Below are positions 1 through 15,764 of a DNA stretch of 15,764 nucleotides, piece after piece. Source of the DNA: Octopus sinensis (Eukaryota); the NCBI RefSeq assembly GCF_006345805.1, contig NW_021825351.1, positions 1-15,764 on the forward strand, written 5' to 3'. The notes below the pieces were generated by a model. That model saw only the letters and a list, made by a program, of their open reading frames with translations, did no database searches and was not told where the DNA came from. A program made the position numbers and the translations under genes. The stretch's first letter is position 1. Each line of letters starts with the position of its first letter.

Positions 1-232
1 GAGAGGAGAAGAGGGGGGGAGGGGAGGAGAGGAGGGGAAGAGAGGGAGAGAGAGGAGGGGAGGAAAGAGGGAGAGGGGAGAAGAAGGGAGTGAGGGAGGA
101 GGGAAGGAGAGAGGAAAAGAGGGAAGAAGGGAAGGGGAGTAGGGGTGAAGGATGAAGGACTGAAGAAGTAGGGGTCGGGGGGGAAAGGTAGGTGAGGGGG
201 GGAGAGAGAGGGGGTTAGATGAGGAGGGGGGA
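1..232. repeat. Polypurine (G/A) low-complexity tract; pyrimidine-rich on the minus strand immediately 3' of the PLE ORF relic
   Basis: Almost only G/A (gaggag, gggaagg) for about 230 nt, abutting the end of the GIY-YIG relic. Confidence 0.85.
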
Positions 233-233
233 G

Positions 234-560
234 TTTGAGACCAAATGGCGTATAAGAGCGAAGAGAGAAGATTAATTCTTGTTCACGGCGCAAACGGGAA
301 TCCGGATGGCCTCTGTGTAAGGACAACCGCCACAGATAGGTGTTGCAAGGAGTGACCTGTGGAGCGGAAATGGCGTGAGACCGGTGTGTCGTTCACAAGG
401 TGGATGTCACGAAGTTGTTCCGCGAACCGGTCAGCCAAGCGGCGTCCGTTTGTGTCCGATGTACAAGGATGGCAGAGAGAGCAAGAGACGCAATAGATAA
501 TATTGCTGGAGGTGCAGGTGAAGGAGTGGATGATGGAATAGGGTCGATGATGGGTGCTAG
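234..560 (-). pseudogene. Penelope-like element GIY-YIG endonuclease relic (frameshifted)
   Basis: Minus-strand translation HSFTCTSSNIIYCVSCSLC, then LYIG in a shifted frame (ttg tac atc gga, 455-466), then GRRLADRFAEQLRDI..NDTPVSRHFRSTGHS, then in another frame SRLRREQELIFSLRSYTPFGLK. This is the PLE endonuclease layout: IIY-CxxC-YIG, R..EH, HF...H, RE..I..L...P.GLN. Confidence 0.85.
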
Positions 561-577
561 TGAGATATACATATATA

Positions 578-739
578 CGACGGGCTTCTTTCAGTTTCCG
601 TCTACCAAATCCACTCACAAGGCATTGGTCGGCCCGGGGCTATAGCAGAAGACACTCGCAAGGTGCCACGCAGTGGGACTGAACCTGGAACCATGTGGTT
701 GGTAAGCAAGCTACTTACCACACAGCCACTCCTGTGCCT
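578..739 (-). mobile_element. tRNA-derived SINE family A, 5' half (head + CORE-like segment)
   Basis: Reverse complement of the copy at 15563-15725; Pol III box A TGGCTGTGTGG and box B GGTTCAGTCCC on the minus strand. Confidence 0.9.
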
Positions 740-785
740 ATTACCGCTCCTGCGCCTTATATATATATAAGTATTCATATATGTG

Positions 786-1159: not shown

Positions 1160-1335
1160 CTCTCCTTTTTTCTCTCCTTGTTTCTCTCCTTTTTTTCTCT
1201 CCTTGTTTTTTTTCTGTGTCCCTTTCTGTAGAAGAGCGTAGGCTCGAAACGTAAAAGACTTTTTCTATTCCTGAGCGTTATACTAATACATCTGTTTGTT
1301 TTGTATACCACCTGTCTTTTTCGTAAACTCTCCCT
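1160..1335 (+). mobile_element. Non-autonomous PLE-pLTR-like element with minimal hammerhead-like motif, flanked by dinucleotide microsatellites
   Basis: TC-rich leader, then CTTT-CTGTAGA-A-GAGC-gtag-GCTC-GAAAC-GTA-AAAG (1222-1257). Similar to the reverse complement of 5718-5920 (gaagagc..gctcgaaacgt...ttcctgagc...taatac). Confidence 0.6.
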
Positions 1336-1350
1336 ATATATATACACACA

Positions 1351-1410
<60 letters not shown>

Positions 1411-1622
1411 AAAAATGGTCCGTTCCATGCTGTTTTACCTTTTCGTTTCTCGTAGTTTTCTACGTCTATTTGTGGTGTCCTGTACACACGTATATATATT
1501 TATATATGCATGTATATATACATTTAGATGTAGGTACGTACATTATGTTTGTATGTATGCATATATTTTATTTATTACACTATATATATATATATATATA
1601 CTATATATATATATTAAATGTT

Positions 1623-1727
1623 GTGACGTATATTGCCAATAAATATGGCTAACCCCTAAGGGTGGATGCTACTGTAGTTTGTAGCCCCTTAGGGGTTAGC
1701 CATATTTAAATGGCAAATATACGTCAC
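1623..1727. repeat. Inverted repeat/hairpin beside (TA)n
   Basis: Perfect 23-bp core TAAATATGGCTAACCCCTAAGGG (1640-1662) vs 1686-1708, extending imperfectly to GTGACGTATA/TATACGTCAC. Confidence 0.85.
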
Positions 1728-1934
1728 GATGTGTTGTAGCTACTGTTTATAACTCGCTCTGAGATTTATTTTTGTATATTGATGTTTTTTTAAATAAATA
1801 TTTGTATTCTTATCTTAAATATATTGAATTCTATACTGTATATATTTATGTTATTATGCTTGTAGTTTTGTTAATTAAATAAGACAATATTCTTATATCT
1901 TAAAGCTGATAAACCAACTAATATAATATATATA

Positions 1935-2284
1935 TGCGTGGTGCCAAGGACTCCAAATTTGCCATCAAGATGTAGGACAAGATACTGTGATAGCCTGGGC
2001 TTCAGAGGCCCACAGCTCTTCAATATCCTCCCGAAGAACCTGAGCGACCTGCATGGGGTGGATGCGGATGTCTTTAAAGTAGGACTGGACCTCTACGTGT
2101 CAGGTGTCCCAGATGAACCAACTTCACGGCAGGAGGTGCAGATGAGGGCAGCTGCATCGAACTCTCTCATGCACCAAATGGCAATTGCTAAAAACCATTC
2201 GTGAAGTAAAATCATGTAGCAACACCAAATGGCGGTGCCCCAGCATGGCCACAGCTCGTGAGCTGAAACTAGAATCAATCAATC
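1935..2284 (+). mobile_element. 5'-truncated LINE (CR1/L2 group): ORF2 C-terminus, 3' UTR stem-loops and (AATC)n tail
   Basis: ORF 1938-2204 reads ..SLGFRGPQLFNILPKNL..VFKVGLDLYVSGVPDEP..RAAASNSLMHQ, resembling the WN/FNxLP...FKxxLD C-terminus of CR1/L2-type RTs. Followed by GGCGGTGCCCCAGCATGGCCACAGCTCGTGAGCTGAAAC (2231-2269) and (AATC)3. Confidence 0.75.
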
Positions 2285-2303
2285 AAATATATATATATAC
2301 ATA

Positions 2304-2538
2304 GAGGGTGAGCCAAAAAGTAGTCCCCATTTTCTGGGAAGTCGTGCCTTTGTTGTTTTGTATGTTGTTGCTGACAGTTTTCAAAGTCACTGAATCTGGG
2401 TCATGCATCGTGTTCATAATACTCTTTGACATACTAAACTCGTTGAACAAAAATGAGGGGTCAAAAGTATCGCCCAATTGGGGAGTCATACATATCAGCC
2501 CTAAAACAGGAATTGGGCGCTACTTTTGACTGAACCTG
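2304..2538. mobile_element. Tc1/mariner-type MITE with TA target-site duplication
   Basis: Left end TA|GAGGGTGAGCCAAAAAGTAGTCCCCA; reverse complement of right end TA|CAGGTTCAGTCAAAAGTAGCGCCCA; TA at 2302-2303 and 2539-2540. Confidence 0.65.
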
Positions 2539-2553
2539 TATGTATCTATGCGA

Positions 2554-2777
2554 GTGTGTCTTTGCGTCTCTGTTCCCTCCCCATTACCGCTCGACAACCG
2601 GTGTTGGTGTGTTTATGTCCCCGTAACTTATGCTATGGGCATAAAGAGACCGATAGAATATGTAGTAGGCTTTTTAAAAAAGAAAAGGTCCTGGGGTCGA
2701 TTTGTTCGACTAAAAATTATTCAAGGCGGTGCCCCAGTATGGCCGCTGTTAAGTGATTGGAACAAAAGAATAAAAGA
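2554..2777 (+). mobile_element. SINE family A, 3' half (diverged)
   Basis: gacaaccggtgttggtgtgtttatgtccccgtaac...ggggtcgatttgttcgactaaa...ggcggtgccccagtatggccgc...aaaagaataaaaga matches the reverse complement of about 2786-2985. Confidence 0.85.
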
Positions 2778-2785
2778 TATATACA

Positions 2786-3173
2786 TACTCTTTTACTTGT
2801 TTCAGTCATTTGACTGCGGCCATGCTGGAGCACCGCCTTTAGTCAAGCAAATCGACCCCGGGACTTATTCTTTGTAAGCCCAGTACTTATTCTATCGGTC
2901 TCTTTTGCCGAACCGCTAAGTAACGGGGACATAAACACACCAGCATCGGTTGTCAAGCAATGCTAGGGGACAAGCACAGACACACAAACACACACACGCA
3001 TATATAGATATACATATATACGACAGGCTTCTTTCAGTTTCCGTCTACCAAATCCACTCAGAAGGCTTTGGTCGGCCCGAGGCTATAGTAGAAGACATTC
3101 GCCCAGGGTGCCACGCAGTGGGACTGAACCCGGAACCATGTGGTTGGTAAACAAGCTACTTACCACACAGCCA
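2786..3173 (-). mobile_element. Near full-length SINE family A (tRNA head, CORE-like segment, internal (TA/TG)n, distal domain, LINE-like tail)
   Basis: Colinear with 8323-8715; box A/B at the right end; GGCGGTGCTCCAGCATGGCCGCAGTCAAATGACTGAAACAAGTAAAAGA tail at the left end. Confidence 0.92.
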
Positions 3174-3324
3174 TGCGTGTGTGTAGATAAATAGATTGAT
3201 ATACATACATGCATACACTTAAATATATTTATGCGTTGTGTGTATATATATACATAAAGGGGTGGCCTATTAAATTCGGTGCCCTTGCTGAAATATATGA
3301 TGCAAATGTATGTATATGACCCTC

Positions 3325-3341
3325 TGTGTGTGTGTGTATAC

Positions 3342-3372
<31 letters not shown>

Positions 3373-3488
3373 TGTGCGTGTGTGTGTGCCAAAGTGGTGT
3401 TTCGGGGGTGGGGGTTCAAAGAAAATATCAAATATCAAAGCGGGAGAAATAATGCTAGCGTCGAAAGTGGTGGTGGTGTTAGTAGTAC

Positions 3489-3527
<39 letters not shown>

Positions 3528-3609
3528 CAGTAGTAGTAGTAGTAGTAGTAGTTGTGATGGTGGTTGTGCCTGCAGCAGCAGTGTTTCGGTGCTCGTTGCC
3601 CTTCATATG

Positions 3610-3646
<37 letters not shown>

Positions 3647-3937
3647 AAGTATGTGTATAGGTATGTATGTGTCGAAACGAATGTATATACAATTGTGTGT
3701 GTATGTGTATAAACAAACACACCCGCACACACACCACATATATATATGTGCACGTACATATAATATTATATATATAATATATAATATAATATATATAATA
3801 TATATATATATATATGCTGCTGATGTACATATACATCTGTTGATACACACACATACATATATATACACATATATATATGCTGGTGTGTGTGTGTGTATAT
3901 ATATATATATATTATATATATACACACATATATATAT
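3325..3937. repeat. Compound microsatellites (TG)n, (GTA)n, (TA)n, (CA)n
   Basis: Directly visible, e.g. (GTA)n at about 3482-3550. Confidence 0.9.
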
Positions 3938-4203
3938 CGCATAAGTTGATGGGGTTGGACTCAACTGATGGTGGTCGTGGCGAATTCTTGCAAGTGGTGC
4001 TTGTTGTTGTTGTTGCTTAGTGGTGGTGGTTGGGCCTCTGCAAGTGTTACCGGTGCTGGTGGTGGTGGTGGTGGTGGTGGTGGAAATGAAGGTTACCAAC
4101 CTACCCCGTACCCGTCCAACCACCCACGATCCTTACCCCACAAGGCCTCCCAGTATCTCGCTGGCTGAATGATATCGCAGTCGCGGTCGCAGCTACAAGG
4201 ACG

Positions 4204-5125
4204 ATGGAGGAGGTGATAGTGGTGGTGGTAGTGATGGTGGTAGTAATGGTGGTGGTAGTGGTGGTGGTAGTAATGGTGGTAGTGATGGTGGTGGTGGTGG
4301 TGGTGATGACGATGGCAGTGGAAGCAGTGTTGACGTGGGTAGTGGTGGTGATCGTCGTAATGCTGGTGGTGATGATGATGGTGGATTTACTCGAAATGAT
4401 AGTGGTGCCAGTGGAAGTTGTGGAAGCAATGCGGGTGGTGGTGGTGGTGGTGGTAGTGGTAGTTGTTGTGGTGGTGGTGATAGAATGTAGAAGTGCAGGT
4501 GATGGTTGATGTAGTGGAGGTGGTTGTAGTGGCGGTTGTGATTCTGATGGTGAAAATGGATGTAGTGTAAGCGTTGGTGGTGGTGATGTCGGTGGTAGTA
4601 GTGGTGATGGTGTTGGTGGTGGTGGTGGGGTGGTGTGTGGTGGTGGTGGTAGTGGTGGTGGTGGTGGTGGTGGTGGAGGTGGTGGTGGTGGAGGTGGTGG
4701 TGGTGGTGGTGGTAGTAGTGGTGGTGGCTGTAGTGGTGATGGTGTTGGTGGTGTTGGTGGTGGTGGTGGCTGTAGTGGTGATGGTGGTGGTGGTGGTGGT
4801 GGTGGAGGTGGTGGAATTGGTTCTGTTCTTTGGTCTTTGCGGCGGTGTGGTGGCGTTAATAGTTGTTTCGAAGCTGGCGGTGGCGATGTTAATGGTGATG
4901 ACGGTTGTATAGGTAGTAGTTGCGAGGGGTGATGGTGGGCACAACAGCAGTGGCCAATATTTATGGTTGTACCGGTGGTTGTGTGGTAGTGGTGGCGGTG
5001 GTGGTGGTGGTGGTGGAAGCAGAGTCGTTCATACTGAACAAGATGGTGGTGGAGGGCGGTTGTTGCTATTAGTGATAAGTTGAGGAAAAGCCATAGATAA
5101 CAGCAGCAGCAACAGCAGCAGCAGC

Positions 5126-5180
<55 letters not shown>

Positions 5181-5240
5181 TGGTGTGGTGGTGGTGGTGG
5201 TGGTGGTTGTTAGTGTTGATGTTGGCGTTGATGATGGAGG
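4204..5240. repeat. About 1-kb compound trinucleotide tract: degenerate (GGT)n, then (CAG)n 5101-5127 and (TAG)n 5128-5179
   Basis: Directly visible; yields poly-V/G/P/T/H/Y ORFs in several frames. Confidence 0.9.
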
Positions 5241-5483
5241 TGGGCGGGACACAACGGAAGGGGTTTTAGGGATCGGGGTGGAGGGTGTTTAATCCGGGGT
5301 AGAAGAGAGGGTGGTTCGGTTGACGGTACGTGTGGTTGGCGGTATTTTCTTTTCATCCTGCGTGTTTAAAATTATTTCCCCCCCCCCTCTTAGGGTATTT
5401 TCTATGTGTGTTGAAGGGGAGGGAGATGGGTCGAGTGACAAGGCAAGAAGGACACATTCTTTCAGAGAATTAGGGGATATATA

Positions 5484-5515
<32 letters not shown>

Positions 5516-5649
5516 AATGTACGTACATATATGTATGTATATCTATCTGTCTCTCTCTCTCTCTATATAATATATATATATATACACACACACACACCTA
5601 TATATAATATATATATATTATATATATATATATTATATATATATATATT

Positions 5650-5706
5650 GTGGTGCTCCAGCATGGCCGCGCTTTCGGGCTGAAACATTTTTAAGGATTT
5701 AAGGAT
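5650..5706 (+). mobile_element. Isolated LINE/SINE 3' tail variant in (TA)n
   Basis: GGTGCTCCAGCATGGCCGCGCTTTCGGGCTGAAAC followed by a repeated TTTAAGGA tail; homologous to 2231-2269 and 15189-15240. Confidence 0.75.
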
Positions 5707-5717
5707 ATATATATATA

Positions 5718-5920
5718 GTTAATCCAAACATAAAAACACAAAGAGAAAACACAACAACGCGAGGACGTGGAATAAATATAGTATTATTGGATGCTCAGGA
5801 AAGAAGGAGAGTGTAACGTTTCGAGCGGAGCTCTTCGTCGGAAACATAGGAGAAGGAAAGATCCAGAGAAGGGAAGACAGAGGGAAAAAAATAGTCAAAA
5901 GTACACACGCGGTCACATTT
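5718..5920 (-). mobile_element. Non-autonomous PLE-pLTR-like element with minimal hammerhead-like motif
   Basis: Minus strand CCGACGA-A-GAGC-tcc-GCTC-GAAAC-GTTA (5841-5814); TC-rich leader; 3' end abuts (TA)n; related to 1160-1335. Confidence 0.55.
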
Positions 5921-5928
5921 TGAATATA

Positions 5929-6173
5929 TTCTTTTACTTGTTTCAGTCATTTGACGGCTGCCATGCTGGAGCACCGCCTTTAGTCAAACAAGTCGACATT
6001 AGAACTTATTCTTTATAAGCCTAGTACTTATTGTATTGATCTCTTTAAGGCGAACCGCTATGTTACTGGGACGTAAACACACCAACATCGGTTGTCAAGC
6101 GATTATGGATGGGGGATAAACACAGACACAAATATATACATAAATATGATATATACATCGGGCTATTTCCAGT
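5929..6173 (-). mobile_element. SINE family A, 3' half with a remnant of the head junction
   Basis: cttttacttgtttcagtcatttgacggctgccatgctggagcaccgcctttagtc... matches 2786-3030. Confidence 0.85.
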
Positions 6174-6187
6174 ACTGAACCTTTCAG

Positions 6188-6249
6188 GGCGGTGCTCCAG
6201 GATGGCCGCAGTCAAATGACTGAAACAAGTAAAAGAATAAAAGAAAGAA
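6188..6249 (+). mobile_element. SINE family A tail
   Basis: ggcggtgctccaggatggccgcagtcaaatgactgaaacaagtaaaagaataaaaga. Confidence 0.85.
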
Positions 6250-6267
6250 TATATATATACAAACTGA

Positions 6268-6451
6268 CCATGTTGGAGCACCGCCTTGAAGGGTTTTTTA
6301 GTCGAAGAAATCGACTCTGGGACTTATTCTTTGCAAGCCTAGCTAGTACTTGTTCTACCGGCCTCTTAGGCTTAGCCGCTAAGTTACGGGGACATAAACA
6401 CACCAACACCGGTTTTTAAGCGATGGTAGTGGGGACAAGCATAAACACAAA
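6268..6451 (-). mobile_element. SINE family A, 3' half lacking the extreme tail
   Basis: ccatgttggagcaccgcc...gggacttattctttg...ccgctaagttacggggacataaacacacc matches other copies. Confidence 0.85.
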
Positions 6452-6469
6452 TGCACACATACATAAATA

Positions 6470-6501
<32 letters not shown>

Positions 6502-6565
6502 ATATATATATATATATATATAATGAAAAGAATGGAGTCGAACGAAGATTTTAACAAAATTCCTT

Positions 6566-6652
6566 TACTTTCGACATATGTTTCGAAGACTGCGTATTCT
6601 TAATTCTGAAGGAATGAAGGTTGCATTATCCCGTCTTCTCACCAGGAAATAC
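6566..6652 (-). ncRNA. Type I hammerhead ribozyme motif with one core substitution, inside a ~250-bp element (6523-6770) bounded by (TA)n
   Basis: Minus strand GUAUUUC-CUGGUGA-GAAGAC-(42 nt)-GUCUUC-GAAAC-AUAU-GUC-GAAAGUA. Helix II is 6 bp, helix III is AC/GU within the palindrome ACAUAUGU, helix I is UUUC/GAAA, and the cleavage triplet is GUC. A6 is replaced by G. Confidence 0.7.
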
Positions 6653-6788
6653 AAGGAACCTCTATCAGCCTCGAGACGAACAAAAGCTTCTTACCGTCTG
6701 CCTACATGGTTTCCACAGTGATGTCGATTAACAGAATTATCCATACTAGGATAATTCATTCATCTACTTAAATATATATATATATATG

Positions 6789-6856
6789 CGGCGGGCTTCT
6801 TTCAGTTTCCGTCTACCAAATCCATTTACAAGGATTTGGTCGGCCAGGGGCTATAT
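6789..6856 (-). mobile_element. SINE family A head fragment
   Basis: cgggcttctttcagtttccgtctaccaaatcca...ttggtcggccaggggctata. Confidence 0.8.
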
Positions 6857-6860
6857 ATTA

Positions 6861-6915
6861 CGAGGGTGAGTCAAAAAGTAATGGCGCCATTTTGTTTAGA
6901 ACAGGTATAATTGCG
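6861..6915. mobile_element. Tc1/mariner-like terminal fragment
   Basis: TA|CGAGGGTGAGTCAAAAAGTA resembles the left TIR at 2304. Confidence 0.45.
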
Positions 6916-6957
6916 TTGTCTCCATTTATTTGGTTTTCGGCCAAGAAAGGAAATATT

Positions 6958-7483
6958 AGGATCTTTTCGGTTTGACCGGCAGTTTTTTCTAGCGGTGTCA
7001 TATGAAACTGTCACCCATAATTATGACCCTAGTTTCGATCTATTGCATTTCAATCTATTTTAGGGTTAGGGTTACGGGTGGGGGGAATGGTATCTTTTTT
7101 TTCTTCAGAAATGTAAATAAAAAATTTTAAACTTCGTATACTGGTAGAATGTGTTTATAAAACATCTTTTTCTCTTGGCTTTATTGAGAAAATTCTAGAG
7201 TTTGTAAGATATTTGTTGTTTTTTTTCTTTAATTTCTGCAATTTCAACCAATCACTGACGTCCATTGAGGTAAAAAAAAACATTCTGTGCCGTATGAATA
7301 TGTCCCTCGTTTAAGAAACAGATTGGGTTTATTTACATTTGTGAAGAAAAAAAGATACCCTTCCACCCACCCCTAACCCTAAAACAGATTGAAATGCAAT
7401 AGATCGATACTAGGTCATAATTATGGGTGACAATTTCATATGACACCGCTAGAAATAACTGTCGTTCAAACCGAAAAGATCCT
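6958..7483. mobile_element. MITE/foldback element with ~160-bp terminal inverted repeats
   Basis: AGGATCTTTTCGGTTTGA...AAATGTAAATAAA (6958-7121) pairs with about 7328-7483, ending TCAAACCGAAAAGATCCT; no clear TSD. Confidence 0.85.
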
Positions 7484-7676
7484 CATAATTAACTGATCCT
7501 CGTTGTATGTTTTTTTTTCACCCAAAGCGAAGAACTTGTTAACACCTCCTCTTGAACACACACAAACACACAGACACGCCCGCACACACACACATATATA
7601 CGTAACACATACATACGTAACACATACATATACACATATATACATATATAAACACGCACGCGCGCACAGAGACAAT

Positions 7677-7707
<31 letters not shown>

Positions 7708-7713
7708 ACACAC

Positions 7714-7885
7714 ACGGCAGTCTTCTACGCTCTTTCCGTTTACCAAATTCCACTTCGAAGACATTGGTCTGTCTGTCTGTGTGTCAACTCATTCACCACA
7801 GCAGAGAATTAAAGAAACACTCGCGAAAGAGACCAATTAAGAAACTGCCTGAAACCGGAACCAGATTCTACGAAGCCAACTTCAG
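7714..7885 (-). mobile_element. Old, highly diverged SINE family A head
   Basis: tttccgtttaccaaattccact..acattggtc...gaaaccggaacca loosely matches the head. Confidence 0.4.
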
Positions 7886-8198
7886 CACCAAACAGCTTTA
7901 CATGAAAGTGACTCGAGGAATAGGACTTGGCTGCTATTTTTAGCATGTCAAACGGCTAAAGAGGTTAATCACGGGCAAATTTGTGAAGGAGTCCAACCAA
8001 GCATTTGCTTCTTGTGTCTGCGTCAGTATTTTCTGAAGTGGTTGACTGATCTGATATTACACGTATTAGAGGAAGGGGGAGAGGGGGGAATGGTAAGAGG
8101 AGAGGAATAGAGGGAGGGAGTGTCGAACAATACGTGTCACTGTGACTTCTGTGTGTGTGTGTGTGTGCGTGTGTGTGTGTGTGAGTGTGTGTGTACAC

Positions 8199-8290
8199 GC
8201 TGCTTTTAAATAAAGCATATTACTCTACCACTGGTATTTGAGTACTCTTTTTTCCACCTTGTTTCACATTTATGTGTTTACTCCGGTATA
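8199..8290 (+). mobile_element. 3' terminal ~90 bp of the pLTR-like element also present at 14728-14932
   Basis: Near-identical reverse complement of 14724-14813; contains AATAAA and ends in (TA)n. Confidence 0.8.
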
Positions 8291-8291
8291 T

Positions 8292-8322
<31 letters not shown>

Positions 8323-8715
8323 TACTCTTTTACTCTTTTACTTGTTTCAGTCATTTGACTGCGGCCATGCTGGAGCACCGCCTTTAGTCGAGCAACTCGA
8401 CCCCGGGACTTATTCTTTTTTGTAAGCCCAGTACTTATTCTATCGGTCACTTTTGCCGAACCGCTAGGTAACGGGGACATAAACACACCAGCATCGGTTG
8501 TCAAGCAATGCTAGGAGGACAAACACAGACACACAAACACACACACAAACATATATAGGACAGGCTTCTTTCAGTTTCCGTCTACCAAATCCACTCACAA
8601 GGCTTTGGTCGGCCCGGGGCTATATAGTAGAAGACACTTGCCCAAGATGCCACGCAGTGGGACTGAACCCAGAACCATGTGGTTGGTTAGCAAGCTACTT
8701 ACCACACAGCCACTC
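8323..8715 (-). mobile_element. Near full-length SINE family A
   Basis: Tail, distal domain, (CA/TA)n linker, CCTTGGGCAAG-like CORE segment, box B and box A; colinear with 2786-3173. Confidence 0.92.
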
Positions 8716-8784
8716 ATTATATATATATGCAAGCATGTATGTAGATGTGCAGGAGAGTATTCATGCATTTATATGTGTGTGTGT

Positions 8785-9061
8785 GGAGGCGTAATGGCCC
8801 GGTAGTCTTAGGATCGCGGTTTCGATTCCCGGACCGGGCGTTGTGAGTGTTTATTGAGGGAAAAACAGCTAAAGCTCCACGAGGCCCCGGCGGCGGGGGC
8901 GAACCCTGCTGTACTCTTTCCCAACAACTTTCTCCCTGTTTCTGTTGTACCCTGTAATTCAAAAGGGCCAGCCTTGTCATACCCTGTGTCATGCTGAATC
9001 TCCCCCTGAGAACTACGTTAAGGGTACGGGTGTCTGTGGAGTGCTCAGCCACTTGCACGTT
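8785..9061 (+). mobile_element. tRNA-derived SINE family C (head appears internally deleted)
   Basis: GGAGGCGTAATGGCCCGGTAG (box A-like) and GGTTTCGATTCCC (box B-like) with abnormally short spacing; body unrelated to families A and B; single copy in the window. Confidence 0.6.
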
Positions 9062-9095
9062 CCGAGGTCAACTCTACCTTTCGGGGGTCGATAAA
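9062..9095 (+). mobile_element. Fragment of the SINE family B central domain
   Basis: ccgaggtcaactctacctttcgggggtcgataaa resembles gccgaggtcgacttcgcctttcatcctttcggggtcgataaa (reverse complement of 10873-10913). Confidence 0.6.
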
Positions 9096-9469
9096 AAAAG
9101 ATAATATTAACCCAAGGCTGGAGCAGCCATTGCTCTATCTGAGTCGCATATCCTAAACCTTCCGGGAAAATCACGAGAACGCTGAAAGTGACGTAGTATG
9201 GGCGGTCTCTTTCCGGTCGCCTCTACTTGGACACAAGCACGTGATGATGTCCATAGTCTGTATATGTGTGTGGGGAGGGGATATTTGTGTGTGTATATGT
9301 ATATATGGGTTCATCTGTGTGTTTGTATGTATGTGTGCGTATGCTTAAATCCAACAAGCGCTAATTGTGTTGGTATAGATCAACGTATAGAGGCACACAG
9401 AGAAAATCCTGGGAAGAGGATGGGAGGAATAACCAGGGAACAGAAGTAGAAACGTTTGCGGAAAATTGA

Positions 9470-9497
9470 TACGTTTCGGACTGTGGTCCTTCCTCAG
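9470..9497 (-). ncRNA. Minimal hammerhead motif with intact catalytic core, within a pLTR-like element (~9345-9530)
   Basis: Minus strand CUGAGGA-A-GGAC-caca-GUCC-GAAAC-GUA; ACGU palindrome for a dimeric helix III; helix I is weak. Confidence 0.6.
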
Positions 9498-9725
9498 TGA
9501 CACAAGATTACGTCCAGCAGTGTTGTTTTATTTACAGCAATAATATGATGCAAAACGTGTGTGTGTGTGTGTGTGTGTGTTTTGTTGTTGTTATTATCAT
9601 TATTATAACCATCAGTATTACAATTATTTTTAAGCTGCCGGAGTTACAAAGACCCGGATGTTTCATCATGCATGGCAATTGTCGTGTTAGGATGCGACAG
9701 TCATCTGTGAAAATGTACCACTCAC

Positions 9726-9782
<57 letters not shown>

Positions 9783-9783
9783 A

Positions 9784-9828
<45 letters not shown>

Positions 9829-9954
9829 ATATATATATAAAAGGAAATGAAGAAAATGCTGACAAAATAATTTAAGTAATTTAAGTAATTTAATTAGGTG
9901 AAAGTTCTTTTTACGGTTGCGCATTTGTTATGCTTATCAAAAGTTTTTTCCTCT

Positions 9955-10000
<46 letters not shown>

Positions 10001-10085
10001 AGAGAGAATGAAGCAGGAGATTAGAAAGCCTAGAAGAAACGAACCTATGGGAAATAAGGGAGTGTTGCTTTTTGTGCTTGTGGTT

Positions 10086-11128
10086 CGTGGGAGGAGGTGC
10101 TTGAGTCGTGCGGGCCCGGTCAGCCGTTAGAGAACTCACAGGAATCGACCCATGGTAAATTGTGACATGGCTGTTGTTCACAACAGAACATGTGCAACAT
10201 GTCGAAAGGTGTGCCTCTCAGTTGGCAGATTAAAAAGGCATGTAAGAAGGGTTCATACCTATTTCTTTATTACCCACAAGGGGCTAAACATAGAGGGGAC
10301 AAACAAGGACAGACATAGGTATTAAGTCGATTCCATCGACCCCAGTGCGTAACTGGTACTTAATTTATCGACCCCGAAAGGATGAAAGGCGAAGTTGACC
10401 TCGGCGGAATTTGAACTCACAGCGTAACGACAGACGAAATACGGCAACGCATTTCGCCCGGCGTGCTAACGTTTCTGCCAGCTCCCCGCCTTCTTCTAGA
10501 AGGGTTCATATCTATTTCTTTACTACCCACAAGGGGCTAAACACAGAGAGGACAAACAAGGACAGACAAACGAATTAAGTCGATTACATCGACCCCAGTG
10601 CGTAACTGGTACTTAATTTATCGACCCCCCGAAAGGATGAAAGGCGAAGTTACCTCGCGGCGAATTTGAACTCACAGCGTAACGACAGACGAAATACGGC
10701 AACGCATTTCGCCCGGCGTGCTAACGTTTCTGCCAGCTCCCCGCCTTCTTCTAGAAGGGTTCATACCTATTTCTTTACTACCCACAAGGGGCTAAACACA
10801 GAGAGGACAAACAAGGACAGACAAACGAATTAAGTCGATTACATCGACCCCAGTGCGTAACTGGTACTTAATTTATCGACCCCGAAAGGATGAAAGGCGA
10901 AGTCGACCTCGGCGGAATTTGAACTCAGAACGTAACGACAGACGAAATACGGCTACGCATTTCGCCCGGCGTGCTAACGTTTCTGCCAGCTCGCCGCCTT
11001 CTTCTAGAAGGGTTCATACCGTGGCACTTGTTCCTTCTGCCAGCCACCACAGCTATGCATTATGTCATAGAATGAGCAAAACCTTTGCCAGGCTCAAGTC
11101 TAATGCGAGGACCTTGCATCATCAATGA
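10086..11128 (+). pseudogene. Decayed C2H2 zinc-finger region, probably an RTE-type LINE ORF C-terminus, interrupted by the SINE triplet
   Basis: One frame reads RGRRCLSRAGPVSR*RTH...CATCRKVCLSVGRLKRHVRRVHT (10191-10259) and continues after the insertion as VALVPSASHHSYALCHRMSKTFARLKSNARTLHHQ*. The CxxCGRxCxSxxGLxSHxRxH pattern is typical of RTE C-termini. Confidence 0.6.
10245..11020 (-). mobile_element. Tandem triplet of tRNA-derived SINE family B (Meta/MESC-like central domain); units 10245-10497, 10498-10752, 10753-11005; 15-bp TSD
   Basis: AGAAGGGTTCATA(C/T)C at 10245, 10498, 10753 and 11006. Minus-strand head AAGGCGGCGAGCTGGCAGAAACGTTAGC...GAGTTCAAATTCC; central GCCTTTCATCCTTTCGGGGTCGATAAATTAAGTACCAG. 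Confidence 0.9.
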
Positions 11129-11465
11129 CTCAATTCAGTGATTGTTTCTAGCAATGGTTTTGTTCGTATACGAGAAAGCAGCTAAAATATATGTACGTCT
11201 TTTCCATTTTTTTAATTATTATAAATCTTCCACTGAGGAGGGAACCGGTTTCCAACAAAGATACAAGCCTCCATCTTTGGGATGTAGTTAACACAGACAA
11301 ATTCACATTTGGAACTTAAGTAAAGTCTTGCATATTTTTACTGTTCCACTCAGAGATTGTATTTGTAATGTACGAGTTAGCCAGTCGGTTTCTCATTCTG
11401 AAAATCCCAGTTCATCCAGATTCTCCTTTAAGCATTTACTAACAAAAATCTAGTGGTATGAATAT

Positions 11466-11865
11466 GGGATCTTTTCACTTTGACCGACAGATTTTAAAAA
11501 TAATTTCTTTCTAACTAAACACTTTTAAACTTCGTATACTGGTAGAATGTGTTTATAAAACATCTTTTTCTCTTGGCGTTCTGGAGAAAATTTAATATAT
11601 AAAAACGAAATATACACCGCCGGAAGTTGTAGTTGACAAGCAACAGCAGTAATTGTATTCACCTCAGCAGACGTCATTGATTGGTTGAAATTGCCGAAAT
11701 ACGAGAAATTTAACAAGAAATAGCTTACAAACTACAGAATTTTCTCAAGAAAGCCAAGAGAAAAGGATGTTTTGTGTGACACATTCTACCGGTATACGAA
11801 GTTTAAAAGTGTTTAGTTACAAAAAAATTATTTTTAAAATCTGCCGGTCAAAGTGAGAAGATCCT
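11466..11865. mobile_element. MITE with ~125-bp terminal inverted repeats, related to 6958-7483
   Basis: GGGATCTTTTCACTTTGACCGACAGATTTT... pairs with ...AAAATCTGCCGGTCAAAGTGAGAAGATCCT. Confidence 0.85.
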
Positions 11866-12058
11866 GAATAGAATATGAAATTATTATGTATGTATGTATG
11901 TATGTATTTAATGTTCTCCGCTCTGACGAAGCATACTTTGAAACCTGGTGGCCAAGTTGCAAGTGAACGCTGACCTAAAATAAACCCCGTTCTGTTTTTA
12001 ACAACATTGACTTACTGTTTGTGGCGGATTCACTTCGTGACAAGTTGCCATCTACATA

Positions 12059-12094
<36 letters not shown>

Positions 12095-12704
12095 CTATTT
12101 TTATGTCGGTATGTAGATGCATGTGTGTTTCTGTGTCTGTGTCTGTGTGTGACATTTTACTACAGCCAACCAAAATAATGAATGGCTTAAGGAACGAAAG
12201 ATAAAATTTAACCAACAACACAACCAACCCCGTTTCTATCAAGATTTCGGTCATAGCACATGGCGGCGGCAGCGGTGGTGGGAGCGGAGAAGGTGACGGT
12301 GACGCTGGCTGACTGGCTGACTGGCTGGCTGGCAGGCTGGTCGGCTAGCTGGTGGCAATGTAGCGGTATGAGGTCTTTGTGGTGGTGGGTGAGGACGGAG
12401 ACGGCGATGGTGGCGGTGGTCATGATGTGGTGAGCGAGTGTAAGTGTTGTTGGCAGTGATGTTGAAGGTGTTGGCGGTGAAGGTGGGTGATACTGCTGCT
12501 GTCATTGATGATGATGGAGCTATGGGGCTGTACAGGGGTTACTTGGAGGAATGCTGTTGGTGGGTTCTGTGTGCCGAGAGGGCGGGGCGGGTGGGGCCAT
12601 TAGGGACGGTCATCGTAGTAGCGGAAGTGTATAGGATACGGCGCGCGCGCGAAGTAGTAGTAGTACTAGCAGTCAGCCTTCCATTATGTTCTTTGTTTTC
12701 ATCA

Positions 12705-13022
12705 ATGCTGATTTATAACGAGAAAGCCTTCCAAATGTGGCCATCCTGTCGACGTAATTATCTAATTGTTTGTTTGTTTTTTTTGTTACATTTCAGACCG
12801 TTGGGTGTGATTTGTAAGTATCCGTCATGTCTTTTGTATAACCGTGCTGACCTACGATGAAAAGCCTTCCAAGTGTGACCATCCTGTCGGTGTGCCGTTT
12901 TCATATTTTAACAGGTAGAATGTGATTTGAAATTTCCCTTCGTATCAGATGTTTTAGCTTGATTAATCAAGCTAATCTATAATAAAAGGCTTTCCGAACG
13001 TGACCATCCGGTCGATGTAATT
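12705..13022. repeat. Three degenerate tandem units with ~125-140 bp period
   Basis: AAAGCCTTCCAAATGTGGCCATCCTGTCG at 12723, AAAGCCTTCCAAGTGTGACCATCCTGTCG at 12861, and AAAGGCTTTCCGAACGTGACCATCCGGTCG at 12985. Confidence 0.75.
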
Positions 13023-13028
13023 CTTTTG

Positions 13029-13088
13029 TCTTTTATTCTTGTGGTTCAATCATTGGACTGCGGCCACACTGGAGCAGCTACTTGAAGG
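13029..13088 (-). mobile_element. Old SINE family A tail
   Basis: tcttttattc..ttcaatcattggactgcggccacactggagca matches the tail reverse complement. Confidence 0.65.
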
Positions 13089-13096
13089 GGGTGGAT

Positions 13097-13247
13097 CGTT
13101 CATGAGCAACCTGCGGCCCACAGGACGTTCTAGGATGGCATGCTTAAGGAAATATTTAGCTTGAAGTCTTTAGTAGTGCGGCCCACCCACCTAATGGTGA
13201 GCCCTGTCTCATCCGGTTCACTTCGCGAAAACGATTGCCCATGCATG
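13097..13247. mobile_element. Possible hAT (Charlie-like) MITE relic
   Basis: Ends CGTTCATGAGCAA and TTGCCCATGCATG are inverted at 10/13 positions; two subterminal TGCGGCCC motifs; no 8-bp TSD seen. Confidence 0.45.
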
Positions 13248-13291
13248 GTTTAACACAAGTCGACGTAAATGGACCGACACCGGTTATCAAC

Positions 13292-13745
13292 TGGTGGTGG
13301 TGGTGTTGGGACAGAAAAACAAATGGTGGTAGTGTTGGTAATGGCCGTAGTGGTGGTGGTGATGGTGGTAGGATGGGTGGTGGTGGTGGTGGTGGCGCTG
13401 GTTGTAGGTGGTGGTCATAACAGTTGTGGTGGTGGTGGTAGAGGGAGTGATGGTAGTGACAGTGGTAGTGGTGGTTGTCATCGTCGTGCTGATGGTGGTA
13501 GTGGTGGTGGTCGCCGTTGTGCTGGTGTTCGCTATGGTGGTAGGTGGTGGTTATAGCAGTGATGGTGATGGTGGTGGTGGAGGTGCTAGTGGTTGCGTTG
13601 CCGACGGTTACTGGTGGTGTTGGTGGTTGTCATAACGGTGTCACTCAAGACAGCGGCAGCAGCAGTGGGGTTGGTTGTGGTGGTGGGCTTCTTACTGCCG
13701 TGGCGGTAGCGGCGGTGGCGGTGGTAGTGTTGCTGACATTAATGG
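13292..13745. repeat. Degenerate (GGT)n tract
   Basis: Directly visible. Confidence 0.85.
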
Positions 13746-13871
13746 TAGCGGATTCTAAACTCGATGAATCTTTCAAAACTCATTAAAAAAAACTCAAATG
13801 CTTTTGAGTTTTTCTCCTTTCGATATATTCCTGCATCTGTACTTTATCCTCCGTCAAAGACGCTGGACAAT

Positions 13872-13874
13872 CCA

Positions 13875-13927
<53 letters not shown>

Positions 13928-14207
13928 CCCTACCACCACCACTACTACTACTAATGCTGCTGCTACTACTACTACACTACTACTACTACTACCCCCTACC
14001 ACCACTACTACTACTACCACCACCACCACTACTACTACTACCACCACCACCACTACTACTACCACCACCACCACCACTACTACTACTACTACTACCGCTA
14101 CTACCACCACTACTACCACCACCACCAATTCTACTACCACCACAACCACTACTACCACCACAACCACTACTACTACCACCACCACCATCATCACTACTAC
14201 TACTACT
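13872..14207. repeat. (ACT)n/(ACC)n compound tract
   Basis: Directly visible. Confidence 0.9.
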
Positions 14208-14398
14208 GGCTGTCACCCTCTCTTTCACTTCACGTATCTCTCTTCCGTTTCCTCTCTCCTTCTCAATACTCATCAACCCCCTTCTCTCTCTCTCTCTCAC
14301 TCTCTTTCTCTCCCTCTTTTTCTTTTCTCTATTCCTCCATACTTCGACTTAAGTCGTTTCACGTTACGTCTTTTTTGTACGGTTCGTGGTTCTTTTTG

Positions 14399-14435
<37 letters not shown>

Positions 14436-14438
14436 AAA

Positions 14439-14687
14439 TATTATTAGAGACAAAACCACTATTTTGCAAAACAAACAAGGAAAGACTTAATCAATACATA
14501 AAATTTTAATAAATAGTCTATTTGACTATTTATTAAAAGTTTATGTATTGATTAAGTCTTTCCTTGTTTGTTTTGCAAAATAGTGGTTTTGTCTCTAATA
14601 ATAGTTTATAATATTTTACTATAAAATGGATTTATATCCTAAATCTGATTTTTTCCCTGTAATTTTGGATTTATTCCCTAATATTTA

Positions 14688-14693
<6 letters not shown>
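14439..14693. mobile_element. AT-rich element in (TA)n with an 80-bp hairpin (arms 14439-14518 and 14524-14603)
   Basis: One mismatch in 80 bp, 5-nt loop TATTT; the right arm continues unpaired for about 90 nt to the next (TA)n. Confidence 0.75.
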
Positions 14694-14727
<34 letters not shown>

Positions 14728-14728
<1 letters not shown>

Positions 14729-14932
14729 CGGAGTAAACACATAAATGTGAAACAAGGTGGAAAAAAGAGTACTCAAAACCAGTGGTAGAGTAATATGCTT
14801 TATTTAAAGCAGCAGAAAATTCAACAAAATCTGTTACTCTGAGTTTCACGTTGCCAGCAAAAACTGTCCGATGAACGGCAACGAGAAACTCAGAGTAACA
14901 GATTTTGTTGAATTTTCTGCTGCTTTAAATAA
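14728..14932 (-). mobile_element. pLTR-like element with a 56-bp inverted duplication and a hammerhead-like motif
   Basis: Arms 14800-14855 and 14877-14932 (one mismatch); CCGATGA-ACG-gcaa-CG(A/T)-GAAAC-TC at 14868-14891; second copy of the 3' end at 8199-8290. Confidence 0.7.
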
Positions 14933-15188
14933 GTATATATATATATATGTGTGTGTGTGTGTGGTGTGTGTGTGTGTGTGTTAAAAAGAACCACGTACCG
15001 TACAAAAGTATATATATATATATTGATTTGAAAACCCCACTTGAATGGGAGAAAGCGCTAATACATGTTCTAAGTTATATGATGTATAAAAACATGTAAT
15101 ATACAAATAAATATCTGTAAATATAAACCATCCGATTTTCTGAGTACCTCATTTCTTCTAATATATATATATATATATATATATAGAA

Positions 15189-15240
15189 GGCGGTGCTCCA
15201 GCATGGCCGCAGTCAAATGACTGAAACAAGTAAAAGAGTA
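15189..15240 (+). mobile_element. SINE family A/LINE tail in (TA)n
   Basis: ggcggtgctccagcatggccgcagtcaaatgactgaaacaagtaaaagagta. Confidence 0.88.
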
Positions 15241-15562
15241 TGTATGTATGTATGTATATATATATATAAACAGCAAATTTTAGATACTTTGCTTGTTATA
15301 ACTTAGAATAACTTCGAAAGGTTTTGGCCAGTATTGGCCCCGGGCCATGTCTAACTTAATAGCATTAATATACATTACCGTGTATATTTATTAAAGTGGT
15401 TTTGAGTTTAAGAATCCCTTTGCGTGTAGCAATAGCCCTTAATAAAATGAAAGTATTTATATATTAAAGGAAAAATTATATATGTTGTATAAATCTTTCC
15501 CCTTAACTATTTTCTTTCGCTGGCTACTTGATAAATTCTTATAAAGATTTTATACTTATATA

Positions 15563-15725
15563 GGCGCAGGAGTGGCTGTGTGGTAAGTCGCTTGCTTACC
15601 AACCACATGGTTCGGGGTTCAGTCCCACTGCGTGGCACCTTGGGCAAATGTCTTCTACTATAGCCTCGGGCCGACCAAAGCCTTGTGAGTGGATTTGGTA
15701 GACGGAAACTGAAAGAAGCCCGTCG
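15563..15725 (+). mobile_element. SINE family A, 5' half (probably continues beyond the window)
   Basis: Box A TGGCTGTGTGG at 15573-15583, box B GGTTCAGTCCC at 15616-15626, then ACCTTGGGCAA (CORE-like). Confidence 0.92.
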
Positions 15726-15764
15726 TATATGTATATATATATATATGTATGTTCATGTATGTTT

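What the first reader, a model, noticed from the sequence alone, without database searches (positions are those of the whole stretch)
1222..14891. Six hammerhead-like motifs in distinct small non-coding elements embedded in microsatellites: candidate family of non-autonomous Penelope/retrozyme-like elements
Seen: the pattern C(U/C)GnnGA - helix II - GAAAC - short, mostly palindromic helix III recurs at 1222-1257 (+), 5814-5841 (-), 6566-6652 (-), 9470-9497 (-), 11923-11949 (+) and 14868-14891 (+). Helix II differs in sequence but stays paired (GAGC/GCUC, GGAC/GUCC, GAAGAC/GUCUUC, ACG/CGU; weak at 11923). Each motif lies in a 150-250 bp ORF-less island between (TA)n/(TG)n tracts, and a PLE GIY-YIG relic is in the same window. 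Established: PLE terminal repeats carry minimal type I hammerheads that can cleave as dimers. Inference: several families of microsatellite-targeting, ribozyme-bearing non-autonomous retroelements mobilised by PLEs; most individual copies carry core mutations.
Basis: partly seen in the sequence, partly recalled or inferred. Interest (0 to 1): 0.78.

Follow-up and report, generated by a model that had tools for sequence, protein, structure and literature searches.

The report
Penelope retroelement ends with altered hammerhead
Four of the six motifs are hammerhead (self-cutting RNA) motifs at the ends of truncated Penelope-like jumping genes, a known arrangement; however, one family has spread to over 13,000 copies with a changed letter in the ribozyme core that likely slows or stops cutting, which offers a direct test of whether these elements need to cut at all.

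Summary
The motifs are real, but they are not a set of non-autonomous elements. Four (1222, 5814, 6566, 14868) are the 3' pseudo-LTR ends of 5'-truncated autonomous Penelope-like elements (PLEs): two Neptune-type and two Hydra-type families with 598 to 16,040 exact motif copies. Each was traced upstream to a GIY-YIG frame (three also to RT) in longer copies. Motif 9470 is a lone copy with a canonical core. Motif 11923 is single-copy, poorly formed and probably chance. Hammerheads in PLE ends are known (PMC4209133, PMC8557442).

The new point concerns family A (1222). Its core is CUG-U-N-GA, with U in place of the 'invariant' A6: 13,318 copies against 474 with another base. The change is inherited: it is in both pseudo-LTRs of 7 of 7 full-length copies found. 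On a tree of flanks only, positions 7 and 17 mark subfamilies, while copies lacking U6 are scattered singletons. U6 is predicted to zip the core into a hairpin, and published mutagenesis says CUGA changes give low activity. Most likely this is a slowed or silent hammerhead kept as an RNA structure. Cleavage is untested, and one key paper (Lünse 2017) could not be read.

The parts
2..564 (-). 5'-truncated family-A Neptune-type PLE: end of the GIY-YIG frame and start of the 3' UTR, cut by the contig end before its hammerhead
   Evidence: 89.7% DNA identity over 581 bases to L241; 86% protein identity; 8205 candidates in G000, 150 scored
1178..1335 (+). 3' end (pseudo-LTR) of family A, subfamily A7/A17, ending at (TA)n
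   Evidence: 96% to L091 over 128 bases, 74-80% to the young subfamily; 16,040 exact motif copies
1222..1257 (+). Minimal type I hammerhead with variant core CUG-U-A-GA (U6 at 1229): helix I 1222-1225/1254-1257, helix II GAGC/GCUC, palindromic helix III AC-GU, predicted cut after A1253
   Evidence: sequence; U6 in 13,318 copies against 474
5705..5929 (-). 3' end of family B (Neptune-type); hammerhead 5845-5811 with core CCGACGA (U4C); helix I damaged in this copy
   Evidence: 88.8% to L023; 10,697 exact copies; full pLTR-ORF-pLTR copy L187
6513..6722 (-). 3' end of family C (Hydra-type endonuclease); hammerhead 6649-6569 with long helix II insert and helix III AC-AUAU-GU; A6G is private to this copy
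   Evidence: 83-94% to L251 and L123; 598 exact copies; GIY-YIG frame ends about 640 bases upstream in L148, L149
6724..6770 (+). Inverted piece of the family-C tail, the usual PLE inverted junction
8199..8290 (+). Family-F tail fragment without the hammerhead
   Evidence: 94% to L253
9466..9497 (-). Lone minimal hammerhead with canonical core CUGAGGA, helix II GGAC/GUCC, broken helix I; likely an old PLE relic (inferred)
   Evidence: single-copy; 117 loose look-alikes against 1 control, mostly with hammerhead cores and unrelated flanks; E 2e-6 to a profile of 30 of them, which shares the anchor motif by construction
11923..11951 (+). Hammerhead-like string, probably chance or too decayed to assign
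   Evidence: single-copy; G at position 17, no helix I
14727..14855 (-). Inverted arm of family F with the long tail; starts inside helix II and has no core
   Evidence: 94% to L253
14856..14932 (+). 3' end of family F (Hydra clade); hammerhead 14864-14901, core CCGAUGA, 2-pair helix II with GCAA loop, helix III ACU-CAG-AGU, helix I CUGU/ACAG
   Evidence: 97% to L253; 4,438 exact copies; 723-aa RT-EN frame upstream in L253

Best explanation
Four of the six motifs are hammerhead motifs in the 3' ends of 5'-truncated, autonomous Penelope-like retrotransposons (two Neptune-type, two Hydra-type), and the family at 1222 carries an inherited U in place of core base A6 that likely slows or silences cutting while the RNA structure is kept. 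Shown: family membership, link to GIY-YIG or RT-GIY-YIG frames, tandem pseudo-LTRs in families A and B, 3' ends at (TA)n, and heritable core variants. Inferred from known PLE biology: the element's protein nicks (TA)n and copies its RNA from the 3' end, usually stopping after 150-300 bases, which leaves short ORF-less islands and inverted junctions; these islands are dead copies. Inferred for family A (about 55%): U6 pairs with A15.1 and closes U4-G5-U6 on A15.1-C15.2-G16.2 into one hairpin, so the motif now serves mainly as a conserved structure, probably for the element's own protein, and cutting is dispensable.
For: A: CUGUUGA motif downstream of the frame in 8 of 8 long-ORF copies. Full pLTR-ORF-pLTR with the variant in both ends in 7 of 13 targeted loci, pLTR identity 160/167 to 175/175. 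Frame in line within 1.5 kb in 3 of 30 unselected copies. Pfam RVT_1 E 1e-7; GIY-YIG E 0.006, below its cut-off. B: L187. C and F; the F protein has RWK, DKT, CxCx5C, CxxC and CxH, the Hydra marks of PMC8557442 section 11. (TA)3+ follows the 3' end in 28, 28, 19 and 30 of 30 loci (no background control). U6: 13,318 against 474; of the first 100 non-U copies 68 have C, 23 A, 9 G. Helix-free patterns: U6 form 19,825, A6 form 6,335, controls 4 and 8. Tree of flanks only, 117 copies: position 7 needs 17 changes (shuffled 63.6), position 17 needs 28 (57.3), position 6 needs 22 for 22 non-U copies (21.4), so no non-U copy founded a clade. Subfamily majority sequences differ by 3-29%. Predicted pairing of 6 with 15.1 is 0.98 in the young subfamily, 0.42-0.63 in others, 0.00 with A6. 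All 16 minimal motifs beside Neptune relatives in 80 metagenome loci have A6, so U6 is derived. Literature: single changes in CUGA give low activity (PMC9901934, passages); natural A6C below 0.1 per min (PMC3088659 section 8); hammerhead cleavage not needed for insertion in vitro (PMC11167929, passages).
Against: No cleavage or RNA-end data for any motif. The positions that vary in family A (7 and 17) are exactly those free in an active hammerhead, and G17, which blocks cleavage, marks no subfamily (C or G at 17 in 214 of 13,318, about half G). This fits continued catalysis as well as a silent hairpin. The hairpin gains only 0.2-2.4 kcal/mol over the open fold. The mutagenesis data come from other hammerheads, not from a PLE dimer with its protein. 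Sampling was anchored on helix II and GAAACGU, so invariance there is partly built in; non-U6 and C/G17 copies were deliberately enriched and 24 young copies dropped before the tree. For C only the endonuclease end was seen, no RT. No copy with a fully intact frame from start to stop was shown.
Confidence: 0.8

Rival explanations
1. The U6 motif is still a working ribozyme: slow alone, but active as a dimer or when the element's RT-endonuclease opens the hairpin, so U6 acts as a safety catch. The element identity is as in the best explanation.
For: Only positions 7 and 17 vary by subfamily and G17 marks none. All other core bases, helices I and II and the AC-GU palindrome are kept. Full-length copies hold two motifs per transcript. 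The Anolis PLE hammerhead cuts only with its protein present (PMC11167929).
Against: Changes in CUGA give low activity. U6 is predicted to sequester the bases that must form helix III.
Confidence: 0.3
2. U6 is a neutral passenger: it was fixed once in a successful lineage and the motif has no function now.
For: One ancestral change explains all copies. Other parts of the pseudo-LTR are also conserved between subfamilies. Naiad PLEs thrive without canonical hammerheads (PMC8557442).
Against: The 40-base motif stays fixed except at 7 and 17 while flanks diverge up to 29%. Position 7, next door, changed repeatedly between subfamilies and position 6 did not.
Confidence: 0.12
3. The islands are non-autonomous retrozyme-like elements mobilised by PLEs in trans.
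For: Most copies are short and ORF-less, and many family-B copies start about 85-95 bases upstream of the motif. One 510-bp four-unit array of hammerhead plus 5' UTR exists.
Against: Upstream extents form a ladder up to the frame. Tandem copies are rare. The array's junction occurs 5 times: 4 in one array and 1 on a small contig with the same flanks.
Confidence: 0.08

Closest known systems
Minimal type I hammerheads in pseudo-LTRs of metazoan PLEs (Cervera and de la Peña 2014, PMC4209133)
   Same: Core + extra base + G-C-opened helix II + GAAA + palindromic helix III + NUH + short helix I; mostly solo truncated copies; several families per genome.
   Different: Their consensus is CUGANGAH and the only core variant in the parts read is U3-A8. 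Family A has U6 and family B mostly C4, which a CUGANGA descriptor would miss.
Neptune clade PLEs (features as summarised in PMC8557442)
   Same: One RT-GIY-YIG frame, DKG motif, CX2-5CxxC linker (C-x4-C-x2-C), CCHH endonuclease, (TA)n targets (families A, B).
   Different: Long low-complexity 3' UTRs (about 1 kb in A, about 3 kb CA-rich in L187) and variant hammerhead cores. Clade assigned by motifs, not by a tree with reference elements.
Hydra clade PLEs, including Hydra-1_oBim and Hydra-2_aMil (PMC8557442, files S1, S2)
   Same: RWK, DKT, CxCx5C, CxxC and CxH marks; (TA)n targets. The F hammerhead has the layout of Hydra-2_aMil (helix I CUGU/ACAG, CUGAUGA, helix III ACUC..GAGU, cut after A).
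   Different: F has a 2-pair helix II without the G10.1-C11.1 pair, with all four letters seen at 11.1. The motifs of F and C were not found in that supplement, so they are other families than Hydra-1_oBim.
Non-LTR retrozymes of animals (PMC7229834; bioRxiv 10.64898/2026.07.22.740005)
   Same: Type I hammerhead in short non-coding DNA, related to PLE pseudo-LTRs.
   Different: Retrozymes are tandem repeats with a hammerhead in each unit; the window's islands are solo or inverted 3' ends of coding elements.

Membership tests
PLE minimal type I hammerhead | Core CUGANGA | tested here: not met
   Family A: U6 in 13,318 of 13,792. Family B: C4 in 70 of the first 100. Met by the majority of C and F (24 of 30) and by 9470.
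PLE minimal type I hammerhead | GAAA, palindromic helix III, NUH site | tested here: met
   A, B, C, F and 9470; not met at 11923 (G17).
PLE minimal type I hammerhead | Helix II opened by G-C, helix I of 3-6 pairs | tested here: met
   Met in families A, B, C. F lacks the G-C pair; helix I is damaged at 5814 and 9470.
PLE minimal type I hammerhead | Self-cleavage as a dimer | not testable with these tools
   Only assembled contigs were on offer, which cannot show RNA ends.
Neptune-type PLE (A, B) | RT followed by CX2-5CxxC linker and GIY-YIG | tested here: met
   A. B: L187, frameshifted, 51-74% to A.
Neptune-type PLE (A, B) | Partial tandem with pseudo-LTRs | tested here: met
   A: 7 of 13 targeted loci. 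B: L187.
Neptune-type PLE (A, B) | Placement in the clade by RT phylogeny | not tested
   No reference proteins were held as sequences.
Hydra clade PLE (C, F) | RWK, DKT, CxCx5C linker, CxxC and CxH around E and N | tested here: met
   F: all marks in the 723-aa frame of L253. C: only CxxC and CxH of the endonuclease were seen.
Non-LTR retrozyme | Tandem units each with a hammerhead, no coding parent in cis | tested here: not met
   0, 2, 0, 0 of 30 loci with a same-strand neighbour; one local array elsewhere.
Non-LTR retrozyme | Circular RNA | not testable with these tools
   No raw RNA reads were available.

The most novel reading that the evidence does not exclude
A retroelement lineage has rewritten an 'invariant' base of the hammerhead core and keeps the new state under selection. 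U6 zips the core shut, turning the ribozyme into a protein-gated switch or a non-cutting handle for the element's own reverse transcriptase, and this variant is now the commonest minimal hammerhead of its layout in this genome (about 20,000 copies), invisible to standard CUGANGA searches.
Probability: 0.4. Interest if true: 0.7.

Novelty: new variant of a known kind. Interest (0 to 1): 0.45.

Why it matters
What hammerheads do for Penelope-like elements is open: processing the precursor, helping the protein, or merely riding along (PMC8557442, PMC11167929). A recently spreading family whose core is predicted to be crippled, beside sister families with intact cores in the same genome, is a natural experiment that one bench assay can read. 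It also means descriptor-based counts miss most such motifs here (19,825 U6 against 6,335 A6 for the same layout). The rest of the finding is ordinary PLE debris.

Tried and rejected
Rfam scan: no hammerhead. Pfam on the window relic: nothing. My first scan of 29 GIY-YIG loci found no family motif because it demanded A or G at position 6; the printed sequence showed the U6 form. Family search for 9470 and 11923: no close family; the DNA search skips common words, so these are not proof of rarity. A seventh candidate at 11234 (CUGAGGA plus palindrome) belongs to a repeat that has no GAAA, so rejected. U6 in families with another helix II: the 466 hits were, in the 100 listed, almost all mutated family-A copies. 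Expression and cleavage: no RNA holder listed; contigs laid twice gave no ends and no splice joint, and since they did not list the known variation at position 7 either, they are not used for position 6. Upstream extension of six family-B loci reached a frame in 1 of 6; one of the six (L184) was fetched by mistake for another locus. Extension of four C loci did not reach an RT. A guessed 5' junction pattern gave 1 hit; a looser one worked. Earlier scan findings: nothing in this genome; eight others listed, none used. Literature searches for an A6U hammerhead and for hammerhead + Penelope + octopus gave none. Lünse et al. 2017 and Nelson and Uhlenbeck 2008 were not held; either may bear on A6U. 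One supplementary file of PMC4209133 could not be searched.
Full report
Setting. The window is the start of contig C1822 of G000, a 2.7-Gb animal genome. It is dense in microsatellites and SINE-like repeats. I take the host to be an octopus from recalled likeness of those repeats; this was not tested.

Observation. All six strings exist. A descriptor fitted to them gives 4 hits against 0.10 in 200 shuffles. Rfam sees no hammerhead, as expected for minimal forms.

Copy number. Exact motif counts, with reversed controls of 0: family A (1222) 16,040; B (5814) 10,697; C (6566) 598; F (14868) 4,438. 9470 is found once at up to 3 mismatches, though 117 loose look-alikes exist against 1 control, most with hammerhead cores and unrelated flanks. 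11923 is found once.

What the islands are. A: the window's GIY-YIG relic retrieves a young family. The six of 29 loci printed carry motif A about 1.0-1.3 kb behind the frame, as do 8 of 8 long-frame copies. In 30 unselected copies, 3 reach the frame within 1.5 kb and the rest stop at 13-405 bases. Seven of 13 loci picked for a 5' continuation are complete pLTR-ORF-pLTR units of 3.8-4.5 kb. B: L187 is a 6.3-kb unit with the motif at both ends of a frameshifted Neptune-type frame. C: a Hydra-type endonuclease ends about 640 bases upstream in L148 and L149. F: a 723-aa frame with all Hydra marks lies upstream in L253. The 3' ends run into (TA)n in 28, 28, 19 and 30 of 30 loci; inverted partners occur in 10 of 30 C loci and 14 of 30 F loci (pairs counted from both sides), same-strand neighbours in 0, 2, 0, 0. 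This is the pattern of 5'-truncated and inverted PLE insertions described in PMC4209133 and PMC8557442. One retrozyme-like 510-bp array arose from family A, but its junction occurs only in that array and on one small contig with the same flanks.

Core variants. C is canonical; the window's G6 is private. B has C4 in 70 of the first 100 of 8,638 copies. C4 also occurs in 6 of 16 minimal motifs beside Neptune relatives in metagenome loci and in an F subfamily, and a natural U4C is known to keep some function (PMC3088659). F lacks the first pair of helix II. Family A has U at position 6 in 13,318 copies against 474; the exceptions are mostly C, as decay of T would give. A search anchored only downstream of the cut site found no A6 among 40 unanchored hits. 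With helix II left free, the U6 form numbers 19,825 and the A6 form 6,335 (both patterns require U4).

Is U6 kept? Subfamily majority sequences differ by 3-29%, while the 40-base motif differs only at 7 and 17 (groups were defined on those two positions and helix II was the anchor, so this is partly circular). The fairer test is a tree of flanks alone (117 of 153 copies, after dropping 12 without a readable core and 24 young near-duplicates; rare variants were enriched on purpose). Positions 7 and 17 follow the tree (17 changes against 63.6 shuffled; 28 against 57.3). Position 6 does not: 22 non-U copies need 22 changes. So every sampled lineage that multiplied had U6, and reversion to A never founded a clade. 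All 16 minimal motifs of outside relatives have A6 (the same scan does detect U6 in the window), so U6 is derived.

How it likely works. Shown: structure, linkage and inheritance. Inferred: insertion by target-primed reverse transcription at (TA)n with early stops. Predicted: U6 pairs with A15.1, closing the core into a hairpin (probability 0.42-0.98, against 0.00 with A6), which competes with the dimer helix III. Published data on other hammerheads say CUGA changes give low activity, and that a PLE inserts in vitro without hammerhead cleavage but cleaves only with its protein. I put a slowed or silent, structurally retained motif at about 55%, a protein- or dimer-gated active ribozyme at 30%, and a neutral passenger at 12%. 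The free positions 7 and 17 and the lack of a G17 subfamily keep the active reading alive.

Papers, as seen. PMC4209133: parts 1-2 of 4 of the text, part 2 of 3 of supplement 2 and a search of the supplements. PMC8557442: passages, section 11, supplement searches and part 2. PMC3088659: passages and section 8. PMC11167929, PMC9901934, PMC7229834, PMC6765202, PMC13282606: passages. bioRxiv 10.64898/2026.07.22.740005: part 1 of 5. Lünse et al. 2017: reference line only. The published alignments seen all have A6, but their descriptors require it. Searches for an A6U hammerhead found none; this is not proof of absence.

Verdict. A known kind of element, misread as non-autonomous, with one new variant worth an assay. 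Interest 0.45.

Noticed in passing
window 11190-11450 (+): A dispersed repeat (81 exact copies of a 15-mer, 2 controls) that starts right after a microsatellite and holds CUGAGGA followed by a palindrome, a further hairpin and no GAAA. Identity unknown; no PLE frame was linked in 25 loci.
   Followed up: partly
L454:2520-4330 (G000:C5, about 121.298-121.300 Mb) and L464: Four-unit 510-bp tandem array made of family-A hammerhead, pseudo-LTR tail and 5' UTR: a retrozyme-like derivative, seen at one locus and one look-alike contig.
   Followed up: yes
window 10245-11020: Three tandem 253-bp copies (94% alike) of a SINE-like repeat.
   Followed up: no
window 563-745, 2539-3181, 5926-6480, 6765-6860, 8312-8715, 15187-15750: Many copies of two or three SINE-like families, some as inverted pairs; ARAGORN finds no tRNA.
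   Followed up: no
window 1875-2204 (+): A 109-codon frame that looks like the C-terminal end of a non-LTR retrotransposon protein (recalled likeness); no Pfam match.
   Followed up: no
window 1623-1727, 14373-14614 with 14965-15007, 6951-7490, 11467-11864: Inverted-repeat (MITE-like) elements.
   Followed up: no
L360:7-620: Another Hydra-type family end with a hammerhead-like motif (core CCGAAGA, long helix II, helix III as in family F).
   Followed up: no
L262, L280, L292, L303 and other metagenome loci: Neptune relatives from other hosts share one minimal hammerhead (helix II GGGC/GCUC) with either U4 or C4, so U4C recurs outside this genome.
   Followed up: partly
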